Shown piece after piece: positions 17,055 to 47,811 of a DNA stretch of 50,971 bases; position 1 is the stretch's first letter; each line of letters begins with the position of its first letter. The DNA comes from Escherichia phage herni. Made by a program: the position numbers and the translations under genes. The stretch lies in the sequence record NC_049823.1. The stretch is one strand, 5' to 3'. The notes under the pieces were generated by a model. The model was given only the letters and a program-made list of their open reading frames with translations. It ran no database searches and was not told the DNA's origin.

Positions 17055-17300
17055 TCATTGTTGATCGTGTTTAACTGCCATCAGAATATCACAGGACTCG
17101 TTAATAAATTTTGCCATGCGCTTATCATCACCATCAGGGATTAGCGCGTTAAACTCGCGTTTGCTACTGAACACAGTCACTTTATGGAATGATGCGAACG
17201 GCATCGACGGGAACTCGACTGTTTGCGTCAAGATCCGCAAACCCATCTTTTTGGCCCTTACCTGGGCCTCGGCAAGTTCAAAATCCACTTCACTAATCAT
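17055..17300 (-). CDS. hypothetical protein (81 aa)
   Basis: Start at MISEVDF (17300), overlapping the upstream stop. Confidence 0.45.
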   Translation of the reverse strand: MISEVDFELAEAQVRAKKMGLRILTQTVEFPSMPFASFHKVTVFSSKREFNALIPDGDDKRMAKFINESCDILMAVKHDQQ

Positions 17301-17569
17301 TTCTTGATCTCCTCGGCAATAAACTTCAGGACTTTGCGCAAAAAAACTTCGTTGTTGATGGTTGCTGGCAATTCCTCTTTCACTTCTTGCGGCAGATAGA
17401 TATTGTCGTGCCAGGTTAAGCAATCGTAATTGATACGATAAGAGCAAAGCCACTCGCAATCGTTATCCGCTTCCCAAATGCAGAGTTGCAGAACATCGCC
17501 AAAATCCTCAACAGTCAGATCCAGACCGTGACGCTTTGCAAAGTTGAAAGTGGTTTTGCTGATGTTCAT
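17297..17569 (-). CDS. hypothetical protein (90 aa), first gene of the leftward early block
   Basis: ORF track; AGGAGA Shine-Dalgarno. Confidence 0.5.
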   Translation of the reverse strand: MNISKTTFNFAKRHGLDLTVEDFGDVLQLCIWEADNDCEWLCSYRINYDCLTWHDNIYLPQEVKEELPATINNEVFLRKVLKFIAEEIKK

Positions 17570-17631
17570 TGCTATCTCCTGATGGGTATCTCGTTTCGAT
17601 GTGTCTAATGTACCCGATCAGGGCAATTCAG

Positions 17632-17652
17632 TTTTAACAAAAAGTGCTATTT
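17632..17652 (-). promoter_or_regulatory. conserved intergenic motif (minus orientation) heading the leftward block
   Basis: TTTTAACAAAAAGTGCTATTT about 60 nt upstream of the gene starting at 17569. Confidence 0.45.
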
Positions 17653-17791
17653 GCTTACTGGTTATTATTCCACCTATTCCATTAATCAGGAATAACAGGA
17701 ATAAATCATTCGCGATCACCTGGATTGTGAGACTTTGAGTTTGATCAATTTTAATCAAGTGATTAACTTTTTGTGTGGAGGGGATAGAGAA

Positions 17792-17869
17792 ATGTGGCCC
17801 TCTTGCGTCCTTTCCTGCAATCCTGGCGCGCACAACTGTTATTTCTGTTCCTCGTGTTATCTCAAATAA
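17792..17869 (+). CDS. possible 25-aa Cys-rich micro-ORF
   Basis: MWPSCVLSCNPGAHNCYFCSSCYLK with GGAGG Shine-Dalgarno 10 nt upstream; function unknown. Confidence 0.2.
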   Translation: MWPSCVLSCNPGAHNCYFCSSCYLK

Positions 17870-17891
17870 GCCTCCGCACTTTGAGATAACA
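17855..17891. repeat. perfect 12-bp inverted repeat TGTTATCTCAAA / TTTGAGATAACA with 13-nt loop
   Basis: Read directly from sequence; overlaps the stop codon of the micro-ORF. Confidence 0.6.
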
Positions 17892-17934
17892 GGATTGGCG
17901 TTCACCAACAAAAAGAACAAAATAAAATTTATAT

Positions 17935-18115
17935 ATATACCCATAAAATCAATAAGTTAGTTATATATGTATTTATATTTGTTATTTACTGTTGTGCTTG
18001 TTCTGTGGGTATATGGTGGTGTGGTATTGTTTGTGGTGATATATATGTGTGATTGTATATTTTTTAATCAATTGTGATGTGTGGTGATTTTTGTATGTAT
18101 ATATATGGGTATGAA
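17935..18115. repeat. AT-rich then TG-rich low-complexity element (copy A), homologous to 47450-47650
   Basis: AAATCAATAAGTTAG..TATATAT.TATTTATATTTGTT core followed by (TG)n-like tracts. Confidence 0.5.
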
Positions 18116-18239
18116 GTAATCCTCCGTCAACCAAGTCAACAAGGTCATTTTTAACATAAAAACCAATGACTTAACTGAAGCATTTTGTTATCTTTAAACG
18201 CGCCACGTGCCAAAAATTGTTGTTAAAACACAAAATATA

Positions 18240-18268
18240 TTGACATGCAGGAAAGGCAAGGCAATAAT
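18240..18268 (+). promoter_or_regulatory. sigma70-like promoter (TTGACA, 17 nt, AATAAT)
   Basis: Near-consensus -35 and spacer length about 37 nt upstream of the gene at 18305. Confidence 0.5.
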
Positions 18269-18304
18269 TCATCCAGTTTAAACGCAACAAAAGGAGTAGA
18301 TGCT

Positions 18305-18790
18305 ATGAGCGAAGAAAATATTAGCACCATGTCGCGTAGTGAGTTTTGCGATATGCTTCGCGACTTGGGCGCGGCAATTGGTAGTGGTGAGCGTAATAAT
18401 GTATTCATGCCAGCACTTTTTTTGTGCGCTAATGTGGAGAACGGCGAAGCAATTACGGCATCGTACATGCGCCAAGTTGTCAACCGTGTGCCAGAAGTAA
18501 AGCAAAAAGGCGTGATCAGCATTAAGCGAAAGGTGACTGATGAGGGTGATGGCTTTGTGTTTACGCTCACCGAAGCCAAAAGCAAGCCTCGCGTTCTGAC
18601 TGGTGAAGAAATCGACGAGATCGCAGAAAAGCGCGCAGAGAAGGCGGTAAGCAAAATTCTTAATCACCTGGTAAACGTAATGCCAAATATCACAGACATG
18701 GAAGGCGACAAACTTGCTGGAGCGTGTGAGGCTATCGGGCGCTACCAGGATATGATTCGTAAACTCGCTGGAGGAAAAGAGGATGAATAA
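18305..18790 (+). CDS. hypothetical protein (161 aa), first gene of the rightward small-gene block
   Basis: Start at MSEENIS with AAGGAG Shine-Dalgarno; the track start 18245 lies in the promoter. Confidence 0.55.
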   Translation: MSEENISTMSRSEFCDMLRDLGAAIGSGERNNVFMPALFLCANVENGEAITASYMRQVVNRVPEVKQKGVISIKRKVTDEGDGFVFTLTEAKSKPRVLTGEEIDEIAEKRAEKAVSKILNHLVNVMPNITDMEGDKLAGACEAIGRYQDMIRKLAGGKEDE

Positions 18791-28754: not shown

Positions 28755-30035
28755 ATGAGTAAATCACGAATCGTTAAGGCTGACGGCTATAACGAGATCT
28801 TTAAAGGCGAGAATTGCAAATCGCGAGTAGAGCAACCATTCTACATGCAATCAATGCCATACAAGACACTTGCTGACTTTTACGAAAAAGATGGCCTGGC
28901 AAAAAGGATTATTGACGTAGTACCAGAGGAAATGGTTTCCCCTGGCTTTACTGTTGACGGCGTGGCAGACGAGGCGGCATTCCGTTCTTTGTGGGATGAG
29001 AAGCGATTGAATGCAAAAATCATTGATGCGCTTTGCTGGTCGCGTTTGTTTGGCGGATCTGCAATCATTGCTCTTGTTCAGGATGGGCGAGCGCTCAAAT
29101 CACCTGTAAAGCCTGGAGCTATTCTGGAAGATGTGCGCGTTTATGATCGTTATCAGATTCGCGTTGAAGCGCGCGAAACTAATCCCCGCAAGGTTCGCTA
29201 TGGTGAGCCAGTGCTTTACACTGTAACGCCAGGCGGAGACTTGCCGGAATACCAGGTACACTACACGCGAGTTTGCATTATCGATGGTGAGCGGATACCT
29301 AACGCAAAACGACGCAGCAATGATGGATGGGGTGAGTCAGTTCTTAACAAGCGACTTATTGAGGCTATTGTTGATTATAACTATTGTGAAACATTAGCGA
29401 CGCAATTATTGCGAAGAAAACAACAGGCAGTATGGAAAGTTAAAGGTCTTGCGGACTTGTGTGATGATGAGGAAGGTGTTAGCGCGGCACGCCTGAGACT
29501 TGCGCAGGTTGACGACGAGGGCGGCGTAGGCAAGTCCATTGGTATTGATGCTGAGGATGAGGAATATGATGTTCTTAACTCTGACATTAGCGGCGTTGAT
29601 TCTTTTCTGGAAAAGAAAATGGATCGCATAGTTTCCCTTTCAGGTATTCATGAAATCATCCTGAAAAATAAAAACGTTGGCGGCGTTAGCGCAAGCCAAA
29701 ACACGGCGCTTGAAACATTCTATAAGCTGATTGAAAGAAAACGCGTTGAGGATTACAAGCCTATCCTTGAATTTCTATTGCCGTTCATCATTAGTGAACA
29801 GGAGTGGAGCATTGAGTTTTCACCTTTGAGCGTACCTAGCGATAAAGATCAGGCTGAAATTCTGAATAAGAATATCGACTCAATCAGCAAGGCTATTGAT
29901 GGTCAGTTCCTTGATGTTGAAGAGGCGCGCGACACGTTGCGAGCAATCGCCCCAAGCGTTAAACTAAAGGACACTAATAAAATCAAGCTGCCGGAGCCAA
30001 CTGAGCCGGAGCCAGGCACACAGGGGAATGAGTAA
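28755..30035 (+). CDS. portal protein
   Basis: 426 aa directly downstream of the terminase; GGAGGAAA Shine-Dalgarno; acidic C-terminus. Confidence 0.75.
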   Translation: MSKSRIVKADGYNEIFKGENCKSRVEQPFYMQSMPYKTLADFYEKDGLAKRIIDVVPEEMVSPGFTVDGVADEAAFRSLWDEKRLNAKIIDALCWSRLFGGSAIIALVQDGRALKSPVKPGAILEDVRVYDRYQIRVEARETNPRKVRYGEPVLYTVTPGGDLPEYQVHYTRVCIIDGERIPNAKRRSNDGWGESVLNKRLIEAIVDYNYCETLATQLLRRKQQAVWKVKGLADLCDDEEGVSAARLRLAQVDDEGGVGKSIGIDAEDEEYDVLNSDISGVDSFLEKKMDRIVSLSGIHEIILKNKNVGGVSASQNTALETFYKLIERKRVEDYKPILEFLLPFIISEQEWSIEFSPLSVPSDKDQAEILNKNIDSISKAIDGQFLDVEEARDTLRAIAPSVKLKDTNKIKLPEPTEPEPGTQGNE

Positions 30036-30799
30036 TGAAAGTGAAGGGCGTCGTTAAACAATGGCGCTTTCCTGAAGCAAGCGAGCGGCAATTTAGCCGC
30101 TCAATTCAGGAGGCAATTAGAGATCTTGTGGTTCTCATGCGCAAGCGAACAAAAGCGATGAAGTTTGACGCAACAGATAATGAGATCAACAGCGCAGAAG
30201 ATGAAATTAACAGCCTGGCAACTGACCTTATAGCTGGCATTGTTTCCACTCTTCCTGCAATCGCGTTGACCATTTATAAATTCAATGCGAAGCAGTTTAT
30301 CAATGTTGCCAAGTCAACTGGCGGAAAGGATAACACGGCGGTAATTGTTTTGATCGCGATTGGCGCTAACGCTAACGAGGAGTGGTATCAGACGCTTTAC
30401 GGTCAATGGCACGGCCTTACAGAATCATCGCTAAGGAAGCTATTCACAAATATTGTGTCTGACTGGTCAACAAACATTCGCAATGCAAACTTTCGCGGAA
30501 GCAATGATAAACAGGTTAATGATCTTGCAGAAAAGAGATTTGCTGTTTATAGCTCTTGGGGTAAAACTAGATCAGAAAACATTATCGGCGCGTGGAATAG
30601 TCGCCTGATGCGCCAGCGCCTTTATGATGCTAAGGTGACTCATTATTTCTGGCATGGGATGTTAGATGATAGAGAGCGATTGCAGCATGTATTATGGGAA
30701 GGTAAAAGAATAGCGCTTGATGCAATTCATGATTTCCCTGGTGAGCCGTGGGGTTGCCGTTGCTGGGCGATTCCAGATTGGAATAATAAAGGAGAGTAA
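30035..30799 (+). CDS. head morphogenesis (minor head) protein
   Basis: 254 aa, coupled to the portal stop; assignment is positional. Confidence 0.45.
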   Translation: MKVKGVVKQWRFPEASERQFSRSIQEAIRDLVVLMRKRTKAMKFDATDNEINSAEDEINSLATDLIAGIVSTLPAIALTIYKFNAKQFINVAKSTGGKDNTAVIVLIAIGANANEEWYQTLYGQWHGLTESSLRKLFTNIVSDWSTNIRNANFRGSNDKQVNDLAEKRFAVYSSWGKTRSENIIGAWNSRLMRQRLYDAKVTHYFWHGMLDDRERLQHVLWEGKRIALDAIHDFPGEPWGCRCWAIPDWNNKGE

Positions 30800-47082: not shown

Positions 47083-47310
47083 TTACATACTGCAATCAGC
47101 GTTTTTAAAGTTATCAATACTTACCCACTGAAAATTAAACGGATAGCCAGCCTTAACAAGAGTGCGGTCGCCAACTCGTTTTACTCCAAAAATAGCAACT
47201 GAATACTGCATACCGCTATTTTCATAAATAGCCGTGCATTCACGCTTAGGCATATTTGCGCAACCAGTCAGGGTTGCGGCTGCAATCAAAACGGCGATTA
47301 ATTTTTTCAT
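47083..47310 (-). CDS. small outer-membrane lipoprotein, possibly Cor-like superinfection exclusion protein
   Basis: 75 aa; signal peptide with lipobox LTGC; size and position next to tail genes as for Cor-type proteins; functional assignment is inference. Confidence 0.45.
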   Translation of the reverse strand: MKKLIAVLIAAATLTGCANMPKRECTAIYENSGMQYSVAIFGVKRVGDRTLVKAGYPFNFQWVSIDNFKNADCSM

Positions 47311-47366
47311 CTTGGTATCTCCTTAGTTGTTGTTGGTTGCAACTATACACGATCTTGCGGCGGTCG

Positions 47367-47385
47367 TTTAGCAAAAAGTGCTATT
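47367..47385 (-). promoter_or_regulatory. conserved intergenic motif (minus orientation) upstream of the lipoprotein gene
   Basis: TTTAGCAAAAAGTGCTATT. Confidence 0.4.
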
Positions 47386-47449
47386 CTGTTCTTTTTGTTT
47401 TCCTGCGTTCTCAAATCTGCGGAGGCGTAAATTTAGCGCAAAAAGTGAG

Positions 47450-47650
47450 CAACAATAGAGCGTAATAAATACAGATAAATATATATACATATATATAAAT
47501 CAATAAGTTAGCAGTATATATATTTATATTTGTTTTTTCTTGTTATCTATGTTTTGTGTGATTTTGTGTGTCTGGTAATTTTTATGTGGTTGTGTATGTG
47601 TCAGTGCTTGTGTGTGTCTATATATCCATATCCGGCGCAAATGGAGGAAC
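47450..47650. repeat. AT-rich then TG-rich low-complexity element (copy B), homologous to 17935-18115
   Basis: AAATCAATAAGTTAGCAGTATATATATTTATATTTGTT followed by TG-rich tracts. Confidence 0.5.
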
Positions 47651-47763
47651 AAGAGAACAAAAAGACAACAAAGATATTTATCAATCACTTACATGTAAAT
47701 TTTGTTATCCGATTCGTCTGGAACGTTGTTAGAACAGAAAAAACAAAATAACTGTTGACTAAA

Positions 47764-47791
47764 CGCATTAAATAGCTAAAATGCAGGCATA
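47764..47791 (+). promoter_or_regulatory. sigma70-like promoter (TTGACT, 16 nt, TAAAAT)
   Basis: Near-consensus hexamers about 20 nt upstream of the gene at 47812. Confidence 0.5.
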
Positions 47792-47811
47792 CCAACAAAC
47801 GAGGGCAAATC

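What the first reader, a model, noticed from the sequence alone, without database searches (positions are those of the whole stretch)
17792..17891. Cys-rich 25-codon micro-ORF ending in a perfect 12-bp inverted repeat
In the divergent junction a GGAGG Shine-Dalgarno precedes ATG 17792 encoding MWPSCVLSCNPGAHNCYFCSSCYLK (6 Cys in 25 aa). Its stop codon lies inside the loop of a perfect inverted repeat TGTTATCTCAAA-n13-TTTGAGATAACA (17855-17891). This could be a leader peptide or attenuator, an operator site, or a small RNA.
Basis: seen in the sequence. Interest (0 to 1): 0.45.

Follow-up and report, generated by a model that had tools for sequence, protein, structure and literature searches.

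The report
Spurious micro-ORF; real repeat-flanked palindrome
The 25-codon "gene" is almost certainly not a gene, but the palindrome at its end is a real non-coding DNA signal: two inverted copies of a short repeat that T1-like phages cluster in the two control regions where their genes diverge.

Summary
The window is a T1-like phage (Hanrivervirus, Drexlerviridae). The finding lies in the 735-bp gap between divergent genes (17569 minus, 18305 plus).

The sequence is as described, except that the peptide has 5 Cys, not 6.

The micro-ORF is not a gene:
- Only 6 of 24 relatives keep the ATG.
- The stop and the frame vary.
- There is no third-codon-position excess.
- The overlapping 108-aa minus-strand ORF, annotated in some records, is also broken in most relatives.

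The "SD" GGAGG is one arm of a conserved G-rich hairpin, and the ATG lies in its variable loop. This hairpin is part of a ~180-bp conserved core. T1's coordinate 1 and the record ends of two relatives map into that core, so it probably holds the packaging end.

The 12-bp palindrome is real (fold z about -6; 0.15 expected per genome). It consists of two inverted TGTTATCT sites around a conserved GCCTCCGCA box. It belongs to arrays of TGTT repeats spaced 9-10 bp apart that flank an AT-rich stretch. A paralogous module lies at 47.3-47.8 kb, and T1 has an equivalent motif confined to its two divergent regions.

Best reading: a protein-binding dyad in a duplicated origin or early-promoter control module. 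This is inferred, not shown. Interest is low to moderate.

The parts
17632..17650 (-). First leftward copy of the T1-family 21-nt intergenic repeat (ATAGCACTTTTTGTTAAAA). It marks the left edge of the control region.
   Evidence: 24 matches in the window against 2.8 expected, oriented with transcription. The consensus was published for phage TLS (PMC11447400).
17665..17704 (.). Palindromic array TTATTCC-N2-CTATTCC-N8-GGAATAA-N2-GGAATAA. It is unique in the genome and belongs to the ~180-bp conserved core.
   Evidence: a single locus against 0 expected; near-invariant in 23 relatives; also present in T1, Warwickvirus BEBK14, Webervirus phi_2077 and BHUENT2.
17775..17818 (+). Conserved G-rich hairpin or box (GUGGAGGGGAUAGAG / CUCUUGCGUCCUUUCCUGC). 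It contains the supposed SD. The supposed ATG lies in its variable 10-nt loop. The record ends of relatives fall inside it.
   Evidence: 15 pairs, 100% paired in 16 sequences, 5 one-sided wobble changes and 0 double changes. RNA plus strand -16.3 kcal/mol (z -1.9), minus strand -9.3 (z -0.2); the haarsle record breaks at 17777/17778 and the G29-2 record starts at 17786.
17792..17869 (+). The 25-codon micro-ORF. Judged non-coding.
   Evidence: ATG present in 6 of 24 relatives; no third-position excess; no PHROG family.
17837..17863 (+). Three direct TGTT-type repeats with a 9-bp period (TGTTATTTC TGTTCCTCG TGTTATCTC). The third is the left arm of the palindrome.
   Evidence: the pattern TGTT-N5-6-TGTT-N5-6-TGTT has 3 hits in the window against 0.09 expected, all in the two divergent regions.
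17855..17891 (.). The perfect 12-bp inverted repeat, TGTTATCTCAAA-N13-TTTGAGATAACA. It is a dyad of two TGTTATCT sites.
   Evidence: it is 11-12 of 12 in the window-like lineage, and replaced by different dyads (9+5 bp, 7+6 bp, 9 bp with a bulge) in other lineages. It is absent from the aaroes lineage.
17870..17878 (+). The GCCTCCGCA box in the loop. It is more conserved than the arms.
   Evidence: invariant or near-invariant in 19 of 24 relatives, including lineages with different arms; exactly two copies in the genome, the other at 47418-47426 on the opposite strand.
17886..17919 (-). Inverted-orientation repeats (ATAACA 17886-91, CAACA 17906-10, GAACA 17915-19). Together with the direct repeats they form a larger dyad.
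   Evidence: nested outer stems in the fold. Equivalent inverted ATAACA copies occur in the pSf-1 and E6 lineages.
17925..18110 (.). AT-rich stretch (about 74% A+T against 56% for the genome) with TATATA runs. It includes an IHF-consensus match within AAATCAATAAGTTAG (17946-17960), a second TGTT repeat array (17980-18002) and a GT-rich tract.
   Evidence: 17931-18050 matches 47479-47601 at 75% over 124 nt, E 8e-16.
18240..18268 (+). Sigma-70-like promoter TTGACA-17-AATAAT in front of the first rightward gene (ATG 18305).
   Evidence: 11 of 12 consensus matches.
47311..47811 (.). Paralogous control module between cor (47083-47310, minus) and the exonuclease VIII gene (47812, plus). It contains:
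- the 21-nt repeat, minus strand (47366-47384);
- TGTT repeats (47387-47409 and 47531-47553);
- a weak hairpin (47404-47440) with a GCGGAGGC loop;
- the same AAATCAATAAGTTAG (47497-47511);
- inverted GAACA repeats (47645-47672);
- a sigma-70-like promoter.

It lacks the GGAATA array and the G-box core.

Best explanation
The stretch 17792-17891 is non-coding DNA that spans two cis-acting elements.

**(1) 17775-17818: a conserved G-rich hairpin or box.**
- It belongs to a ~180-bp core (about 17655-17835) that is unique in the genome.
- This core is the most conserved sequence in the neighbourhood.
- It probably carries the packaging (pac) end.
- The "SD" is one arm of the hairpin, and the "ATG" is a lineage-specific variant in its loop.

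**(2) 17837-17925: a dyad-symmetric set of TGTT-type repeats.**
- Its innermost pair is the perfect palindrome: two inverted TGTTATCT sites 31 bp apart, centre to centre, bracketing a conserved GCCTCCGCA box.
- I infer that this dyad acts on double-stranded DNA as a binding site for a sequence-specific protein that has not been identified.
- It forms part of an array of such sites on both sides of an AT-rich, IHF-site-bearing stretch.
- The phage carries this module twice, once at each of its two divergent transcription junctions.
- The architecture is that of an iteron-plus-unwinding-element origin, or of an operator-controlled early-promoter region.
- I lean towards an origin-type nucleoprotein module, at roughly 0.3 of the 0.5 given here.

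**What is shown:** non-coding status, repeat structure, enrichment, conservation and duplication.

**What is inferred:** protein binding, the identity of the protein, and origin versus promoter control.
For: **Non-coding status**
- the start codon is present in 6 of 24 relatives.
- there is no codon-position signal, and the minus-strand ORF is broken by stops or frameshifts in most relatives.
- no protein family matches.

**Conservation**
- 17630-17830 is as conserved as first and second codon positions of the neighbouring genes. The palindrome lies at the start of a variable segment.

**Repeats**
- three-unit TGTT arrays at 9-10-bp spacing occur only in the two divergent regions (3 hits against 0.09 expected).
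- 8 of 55 TGTTAT copies fall in 2.4% of the genome (P 3e-5).
- 4 of 7 TGTTATCT copies fall there.

**Dyad recurrence**
- other lineages have different palindromes built on the same TGTTAT/ATAACA ends.
- One double compensatory change (T-A to C-G) occurs in phage grams.

**Loop box**
- GCCTCCGCA occurs exactly twice in the genome, once in each module.

**Duplication**
- E 8e-16 for the AT-rich part.
- the 47-kb copy is conserved in haarsle and 2019SD1.

**Family level**
- in T1 all six genomic copies of TGTWACA lie in its two divergent intergenic regions.
- one of these T1 regions holds a perfect 9-bp palindrome, TTTTGTAAC-N10-GTTACAAAA, next to TCGCCTCC.
- genus-specific short repeats plus TATATA-rich DNA occur at the same place in Warwickvirus, Webervirus and BHUENT2.

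**Composition**
- 74% A+T against 56% for the genome.
- identical IHF-consensus matches in both modules.

**Core and packaging end**
- T1's coordinate 1, annotated as the start of its 2.8-kb repeat region, maps between the GGAATA array and the G-box.
- the G29-2 record starts at 17786, in a study that linearised genomes where most reads ended abruptly. The haarsle record breaks at 17777/17778.
Against: - No binding protein has been identified.
- Neither the small terminase (93-98.6% identity) nor the helicase C-terminus (93-99%) co-varies with the palindrome lineage. No cognate specificity change is therefore visible.
- The helicase is DUF3987 and shows no sequence match to a solved origin-binding domain.
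- The perfect palindrome is not universal. It is 11 of 12 in six close relatives because of an uncompensated G-to-T or G-to-C change. It is absent from the aaroes lineage and BHUENT2. It is weak in the 47-kb paralogue (z about 0).
- The palindrome sits exactly at a mosaic breakpoint, so part of its form could be a by-product of recombination.
- Evidence for the packaging end rests on database record boundaries and an old map, not on read data examined here.
- The Hanrivervirus motif (TGTTATCT) is enriched in the two regions but not confined to them, unlike T1's motif.
Confidence: 0.5

Rival explanations
1. The palindrome has no function of its own. It would be a mutational by-product, arising by template switching or recombination between inverted short repeats at a mosaic junction in AT-rich repetitive DNA. 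Only the neighbouring conserved sequences would matter.
For: -: homology to the pSf-1-type and E6-type lineages breaks at 17860 and 17842, inside the repeat array.
- diversity rises sharply from 17850.
- six relatives carry an uncompensated mismatch in the stem.
- the aaroes lineage and BHUENT2 have no palindrome.
- the 47-kb paralogue's hairpin is no better than shuffled sequence.
- relative to its flanks, the loop box is inverted in the paralogue, as happens with hairpin-loop flips.
Against: - Four of five Hanrivervirus lineages and T1 have independently different palindromes at the equivalent place, all built on the same end motif.
- The loop box is more conserved than the arms, and is retained in both modules.
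- The motif is strongly enriched in the control regions.
Confidence: 0.2
2. The palindrome and the TGTT repeats form the right-hand recognition arm of the packaging (pac) site. Terminase would bind repeats on both sides of a central cleavage region near 17778-17786, as at the P1 pac site.
For: -: T1's coordinate 1 maps to this region.
- the SU57 paper states that pac lies in this untranslated region in T1-like phages.
- the G29-2 and haarsle record ends are 8 bp apart in the G-box.
- the BEK1-23 record ends about 17881.
- Repeats lie on both sides (GGAATA array on the left, TGTT array on the right), and an IHF-consensus match lies at 17753-17765.
Against: - The TGTT, palindrome and AT-rich module is duplicated at 47 kb, where nothing suggests packaging starts, and that copy lacks the core.
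- The palindrome region varies between lineages while the small terminase is 93-98.6% identical, with no co-variation.
- Most database records start by convention at the small terminase gene (terS), so record ends are weak evidence.
Confidence: 0.13
3. The element works as RNA. A short plus-strand transcript or 5' leader would start near 17776, fold into the G-box hairpin and the palindrome hairpin, and display GCCUCCGCA (complementary to Shine-Dalgarno sequences) in a 13-nt loop. It would act as a small regulatory RNA or a stability element.
For: -: the G-box hairpin is stable only on the plus strand because of G-U pairs. The same holds in Warwickvirus (-28.7 against -15.9 kcal/mol) and T1 (-20.8 against -14.3).
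- all 5 variable stem columns keep pairing.
- the palindrome hairpin is -18 kcal/mol.
- A weak promoter-like TTGATC-17-TAACTT at 17741-17769 (read) would start transcription near 17776.
Against: - No Rfam family matches.
- No pair shows changes on both sides in the G-box helix, and the covariation term is only -0.37.
- By my estimate, five pair-preserving transitions have a chance probability of about 0.1.
- The promoter-like site fails the consensus scan, and no terminator follows.
- The loop box is on the opposite strand in the paralogue.
- The arms tolerate C-U mismatches in six relatives.
Confidence: 0.12
4. The micro-ORF is translated as a Cys-rich leader peptide. Its termination inside the hairpin would control downstream expression by attenuation or translational coupling.
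For: In this genome, GGAGG lies 10 nt upstream of an ATG, and the stop codon is in the hairpin loop.
Against: -: the ATG is absent from 18 of 24 relatives, Cys positions are not conserved, and frameshifts and stop loss occur.
- there is no codon-position signal.
- the SD is sequestered in a conserved hairpin.
- no T-run follows the stem, and the next gene is 435 nt away with its own promoter.
Confidence: 0.02

Closest known systems
Iteron-type phage origins that occur at two loci: SPP1 oriL/oriR and P4 ori/crr. These details are recalled from memory and were not checked in the paper library.
   Same: - Short direct and inverted repeats at regular spacing next to an AT-rich stretch.
- The same motif at two distant loci of one genome.
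- The motif differs between related genera.
- The location is non-coding DNA between divergent transcription units.
   Different: - No initiator protein has been identified, and no origin activity is known for any T1-like phage. Two papers report that none was found.
- The repeats are 6-8 bp with a 9-10-bp period, shorter than typical 17-22-bp iterons.
- The helicase shows no sequence match to the P4 alpha origin-binding domain.
Lambdoid OL/OR-type operator clusters
   Same: - Two control regions share multiple copies of one binding motif.
- Partial dyad symmetry.
- Position next to sigma-70-type promoters at points of divergent transcription.
   Different: - T1-like phages are strictly lytic, and no repressor is known for them.
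- The sites are spread over about 300 bp and flank an AT-rich block, rather than overlapping the -10 and -35 elements.
P1 pac site (hexamer repeats on both sides of a cleavage region, with IHF or HU dependence). Recalled from memory.
   Same: Repeated short motifs on both sides of a region where genome ends map, with an IHF-consensus match nearby.
   Different: - The right-hand repeats are duplicated elsewhere in the genome.
- No Dam-site hexamers are involved.
- Cleavage positions have not been measured here.
The 21-nt intergenic direct repeat of TLS and other T1-like phages (aaATAGCACnnnTTGnTAAAA; PMC11447400)
   Same: It is a family-wide, orientation-specific intergenic repeat of unknown function. 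One copy (17632-17650) borders this region and one borders the 47-kb module.
   Different: The palindrome and the TGTT repeats have a different sequence. They are confined to the two divergent junctions, whereas the 21-nt repeat precedes many genes.

Membership tests
Leader peptide / transcription attenuator | A translated short ORF whose start codon and frame are conserved among relatives | tested here: not met
   ATG in 6 of 24 relatives, with frameshifts in 7 and stop loss in 3; no third-position excess.
Leader peptide / transcription attenuator | A terminator hairpin followed by a U-run, with an alternative antiterminator, directly upstream of the regulated gene | tested here: not met
   no T-run follows the stem on either strand, and the scan does not call it. 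The next gene is 435 nt downstream and has its own promoter.
Intrinsic (rho-independent) terminator | A G+C-rich stem followed by a T-run | tested here: not met
   One search lists only 17709-17731. The palindrome stem has 3 G-C pairs out of 12 and no T tail.
Any Rfam RNA family | A covariance-model match | tested here: not met
   no match at E up to 1 in 17400-18500 on either strand.
Structured RNA (unclassified) | Compensatory base-pair changes across relatives | tested here: inconclusive
   the G-box helix is 100% paired but shows only one-sided wobble changes. The palindrome helix is 78% paired. Of its three columns with changes on both sides, only grams' change is certain; the others may reflect the aaroes-lineage alignment.
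Operator- or iteron-type protein-binding repeat array | A short motif repeated at regular spacing and enriched in control regions | tested here: met
   arrays occur only in the two divergent regions; TGTTAT enrichment has P 3e-5; T1's TGTWACA is 6 of 6 in its two regions.
Operator- or iteron-type protein-binding repeat array | A cognate sequence-specific DNA-binding protein | not testable with these tools
   No candidate co-varies with the repeat lineage. Footprinting or ChIP is needed.
Iteron-type replication origin | An adjacent AT-rich unwinding region | tested here: met
   17905-18110 is 74% A+T against 56% for the genome; the same holds in all lineages.
Iteron-type replication origin | Replication initiates there | not testable with these tools
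   This needs marker-frequency or 2-D gel analysis. The literature reports no identified origin in T1-like phages.
Phage pac site | The fixed end of the first headful maps to the site | tested here: inconclusive
   T1's coordinate 1 and the record ends of G29-2, haarsle and BEK1-23 fall at 17727-17881. No read data were examined.
Phage pac site | Recognition by the small terminase, expected to co-vary with it | tested here: inconclusive
   the small terminase gene is 93-98.6% identical in all palindrome lineages. This fits the conserved core being pac, but not the variable palindrome.
T1-like 21-nt intergenic repeat | A match to ATAGCACnnnTTGnTAAAA | tested here: not met
   the nearest copy is 17632-17650. 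Nothing matches within 17792-17891.

The most novel reading that the evidence does not exclude
The two AT-rich, repeat-flanked modules (17.83-18.3 kb and 47.3-47.8 kb) would be the so far unidentified replication origins of T1-like phages. This would be a two-locus iteron system with genus-specific motifs: TGTTATCT in Hanrivervirus and GTGTWACA in T1. The unique ~180-bp core inserted into one module would be the family's pac site, with cleavage inside a conserved G-rich hairpin. The palindrome in the finding would then be the initiator's dyad site next to the packaging end. Replication initiation and packaging initiation would therefore lie within 100 bp of each other.
Probability: 0.2. Interest if true: 0.45.

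Novelty: new member of a known kind. Interest (0 to 1): 0.27.

Why it matters
For annotation, no ORF in 17570-18304 should be called. This covers the micro-ORF, the 108-aa minus-strand "hypothetical protein" deposited for slyngel, PGN590, JakobBernoulli and others, and pSf-1 gp32.

For T1-like phage biology, the origin of replication and the exact pac site remain undefined, and recent papers list the function of the intergenic repeats as an open question. This analysis identifies a specific, testable set of cis elements:
- a unique conserved core carrying the likely packaging end;
- a duplicated module of short repeats around AT-rich DNA.

These elements are small enough to mutate or clone. 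That matters for engineering or rebooting Drexlerviridae genomes and for interpreting T1-type generalised transduction. The palindrome itself is one site among several, not a stand-alone device.

Tried and rejected
- **Rfam scan of the region:** nothing found.
- **PHROG and Pfam scans of the three candidate ORFs:** nothing found. The flanking proteins have unknown function.
- **IMG/VR search with the right-hand gene:** only 2 loci, one of them PGN590 itself.
- **IMG/VR scan with the 15-mer AAATCAATAAGTTAG:** mostly random AT-rich hits. Only the haarsle and 2019SD1 contigs were useful.
- **Co-variation of palindrome lineage with the small terminase or with the helicase C-terminus:** none found, so this could not separate pac from origin.
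- **Link to the P4 alpha origin-binding domain:** no sequence match in the PDB, and the helicase is DUF3987. The P4 iteron sequence I recalled could not be found in the paper library and is not used as evidence.
- **Long-range pairing of 17773-17781 with the loop box 17871-17879:** possible on paper (9 bp, kept in most lineages). It competes with the better-supported local G-box hairpin and is absent from the pSf-1 lineage, so it is not adopted.
- **Literature on nucleotide-level pac or origin in T1-like phages:** only low-resolution mapping or statements that none was found. One transcriptome search was unproductive.
- **First inverted-repeat simulation:** timed out and was rerun.
- **11-nt complementarity 17809-17819 / 18246-18256:** the T at 17816 is a G in most relatives and the promoter-region partner differs in BEK7 and pSf-1, so it was treated as chance.

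Full report
**Identity and setting**

The window matches Hanrivervirus phages (Drexlerviridae, Tempevirinae; T1-like) at 92-97% identity. PGN590 and slyngel are the closest. Its length, 50,971 bp, equals that listed for phage herni in Olsen et al. 2020, so it is probably that whole genome.

The finding lies in a 735-bp non-coding gap:
- On the left is a gene on the minus strand, 17297-17569.
- On the right is a gene starting at ATG 18305, preceded by a sigma-70-like promoter TTGACA-17-AATAAT at 18240-18268.

The known T1-family 21-nt repeat ATAGCACnnnTTGnTAAAA (TLS paper) occurs 24 times. Minus-strand copies lie to the left of 17650 and plus-strand copies to the right of 19040. The region is therefore a point where transcription diverges.

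**Observation**

The palindrome is unlikely to be chance:
- Perfect 12-bp inverted repeats with short loops are expected 0.15 times per simulated genome. Only two loci exist in the window.
- The hairpin folds far better than shuffled sequence on both strands, as DNA or RNA (z -5.3 to -6.4).

A 25-codon ORF is unremarkable by itself.

**The micro-ORF is not a gene**

I aligned 23 relatives.
- Only 6 of the 24 sequences, the window included, have ATG at the homologous position. The rest have ACG, ACA, ACT or TCG.
- The stop is TCA in three relatives.
- Seven carry a 1-nt insertion that shifts the frame.
- The cysteines are not conserved.
- Diversity by codon position is flat (0.19/0.21/0.16). 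The flanking genes show a two- to three-fold third-position excess.

The 108-aa minus-strand ORF (17618-17944) is deposited as a hypothetical protein in several records, with lengths of 327, 240, 216 or 189 nt, and is absent from others. It is interrupted by stops or frameshifts in most relatives and also shows no codon signal. None of the three candidate ORFs matches a PHROG family.

**What the "SD" and "ATG" really are**

Positions 17630-17830 are the most conserved stretch in the neighbourhood. They are as conserved as first and second codon positions of the flanking genes. They include three elements:
- the 21-nt repeat;
- a palindromic array, TTATTCC-N2-CTATTCC-N8-GGAATAA-N2-GGAATAA (17665-17704), which is unique in the genome;
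- a G-rich hairpin at 17775-17818.

In the hairpin, GGAGGGGAUAGAG pairs with CUCUUGCGUCCUUUCC. All 15 pairs are kept in 16 sequences. Five columns vary only through wobble-preserving changes, and the 10-nt loop holding the "ATG" is the variable part.

The hairpin is stable only on the plus strand, at -16.3 against -9.3 kcal/mol. The same asymmetry appears in Warwickvirus and T1. No pair has changed on both sides, so the structure is suggestive, not proven.

The GGAATA array and a G-rich box also occur at the equivalent place in T1, Warwickvirus, Webervirus and BHUENT2.

**Genome ends**

- T1's record annotates 1-2800 as a repeat region. Its coordinate 1 falls between its GGAATA array and its G-box.
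- The G29-2 record ends at the equivalent of 17785 and starts at 17786. That study linearised genomes where most reads ended abruptly, and otherwise arranged them by reference to relatives.
- The haarsle record breaks at 17777/17778.
- The BEK1-23 record ends near 17881.
- A paper on SU57 states that pac lies in this untranslated region in T1-like phages.

Most other records start at the small terminase gene (terS) by convention. This evidence is therefore indirect. It does point to the conserved core as the packaging end.

**The palindrome in context**

The left arm is the third of three direct TGTT-type repeats with a 9-bp period (17837-17863). The right arm is the first of three inverted copies (ATAACA, CAACA, GAACA). 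Together they form a larger dyad.

Variation across lineages:
- **Window-like lineage:** the stem is 11-12 of 12. Six relatives carry an uncompensated mismatch, and one (grams) has a compensatory T-A to C-G change.
- **pSf-1 lineage:** four tandem TGTTAT units and a 9+5-bp palindrome of different inner sequence.
- **E6:** a 7+6-bp palindrome.
- **BEK7:** a 9-bp palindrome with a bulge.
- **aaroes lineage and BHUENT2:** TGTT-type repeats are kept but there is no palindrome.

The loop box GCCTCCGCA is more conserved than the arms. Homology between lineages breaks inside the repeat array.

**A second copy of the module**

The pattern TGTT-N5-6-TGTT-N5-6-TGTT occurs three times in the genome against 0.09 expected. 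Two hits lie in this region and one at 47531.

The region 47311-47811 is another divergent gap, between cor and the exonuclease VIII gene. It has the same layout:
- the 21-nt repeat on the minus strand;
- TGTT repeats;
- a weak hairpin whose 13-nt loop is close to the reverse complement of the 17-kb loop;
- the identical 15-mer AAATCAATAAGTTAG, which contains an IHF-consensus match;
- TATATA-rich DNA;
- a second TGTT array;
- a GT-rich tract;
- inverted GAACA repeats;
- TTTTGTTATC;
- a sigma-70-like promoter.

The similarity 17931-18050 to 47479-47601 (75% over 124 nt, E 8e-16) is the only significant internal match besides the 21-nt repeats. GCCTCCGCA occurs exactly twice in the genome, once in each module and on opposite strands. 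The 47-kb module lacks the GGAATA array and the G-box. The 17-kb region therefore equals the shared module plus a unique ~180-bp core.

TGTTAT is enriched in the two regions (8 of 55 copies in 2.4% of the genome, P 3e-5), and 4 of 7 TGTTATCT copies lie there.

In T1 the analogous motif TGTWACA occurs six times in 48.8 kb. All six lie in its two divergent intergenic regions. T1's cor/exonuclease gap holds a perfect 9-bp palindrome of that motif next to TCGCCTCC.

**Interpretation**

The palindrome is best read as a dyad of binding sites on double-stranded DNA, within a duplicated, AT-rich control module. The layout has these features:
- regularly spaced short repeats in both orientations;
- a 74% A+T block;
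- IHF-consensus matches;
- divergent transcription;
- genus-specific motifs;
- two loci per genome.

This is the layout of iteron-type origins, or of operator-controlled early promoters. I cannot separate these two readings. Neither the small terminase nor the helicase C-terminus co-varies with the palindrome lineage. The helicase is DUF3987, with no match to a solved origin-binding domain.

The remaining readings, with the confidence I give each:
- a by-product palindrome at a recombination junction (0.2);
- a pac accessory arm (0.13);
- an RNA hairpin (0.12);
- a leader peptide (0.02).

**Novelty and score**

The micro-ORF is not a real feature. The palindrome and its module are an undescribed example of a familiar kind of cis element. 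The TLS and SU57 papers report no iterons or origin, but I could not read the original T1 genome paper.

Interest is low to moderate. The finding corrects annotations and gives concrete targets for locating pac and ori in T1-like phages. Nothing about the finding itself is mechanistically surprising.

Noticed in passing
window 47311-47811: A second divergent intergenic region, between cor and the exonuclease VIII gene, is paralogous to 17830-18300. It shares the TGTT repeat arrays, the identical 15-mer AAATCAATAAGTTAG, TATATA-rich DNA, a GT-rich tract and a sigma-70-like promoter. Its GCGGAGGC box is on the opposite strand.
   Followed up: partly
window 17665-17704: A palindromic array, TTATTCC-N2-CTATTCC-N8-GGAATAA-N2-GGAATAA, is unique in the genome. 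It is conserved next to the first leftward 21-nt repeat in T1, Warwickvirus, Webervirus and BHUENT2, which makes it a family-wide cis element of unknown function.
   Followed up: partly
whole window, e.g. 7089, 8109, 11355, 14200, 16250, 16756, 17632, 19040, 24430, 36699: The published T1/TLS 21-nt repeat ATAGCACnnnTTGnTAAAA occurs 24 times (at up to 3 mismatches; 2.8 expected), always oriented with the local genes. Its function remains an open question in the literature.
   Followed up: partly
window 17618-17944 (minus strand): A 108-aa ORF annotated as a hypothetical protein in slyngel, PGN590, JakobBernoulli and, truncated, in other records is disrupted in most relatives and shows no codon signal. 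It is probably a propagated mis-annotation. pSf-1 gp32, on the plus strand, falls in the same category.
   Followed up: yes
window 47475-47530: The only other perfect inverted repeat of at least 12 bp with a short loop in the genome is ATAAATATATATAC...GTATATATATTTAT. It is made entirely of AT-rich DNA and surrounds the IHF-consensus 15-mer of the 47-kb module.
   Followed up: no
window 18117-18148 and 47640-47672: At the right edge of each GT-rich tract there is a second CCTCC/GGAGG box followed by three 9-bp-spaced repeats. At 17 kb these are AATCCTCCGTC plus GTCAACCAA GTCAACAAG GTCA. At 47 kb they are ATGGAGGAAC plus GAACA repeats. As with the hairpin-loop box, the box is on opposite strands in the two modules.
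   Followed up: no
L152 (T1) 468-501 and 29931-30100: In T1 the 7-mer TGTWACA occurs six times in 48.8 kb, about the number expected by chance. All six copies lie in the two divergent intergenic regions, so the motif is excluded from the remaining 97.5% of the genome.
   Followed up: partly
window 17842-17860: Homology to the pSf-1-type and E6-type Hanriverviruses stops abruptly inside the TGTT repeat array. This suggests that the short repeats serve as recombination junctions between mosaic modules.
   Followed up: partly
window 18019-18110: Two 32-nt GT-rich direct repeats lie 60 nt apart (75% identity) and end in TATATAT runs. This segment is the most variable part of the intergenic region among relatives.
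   Followed up: no
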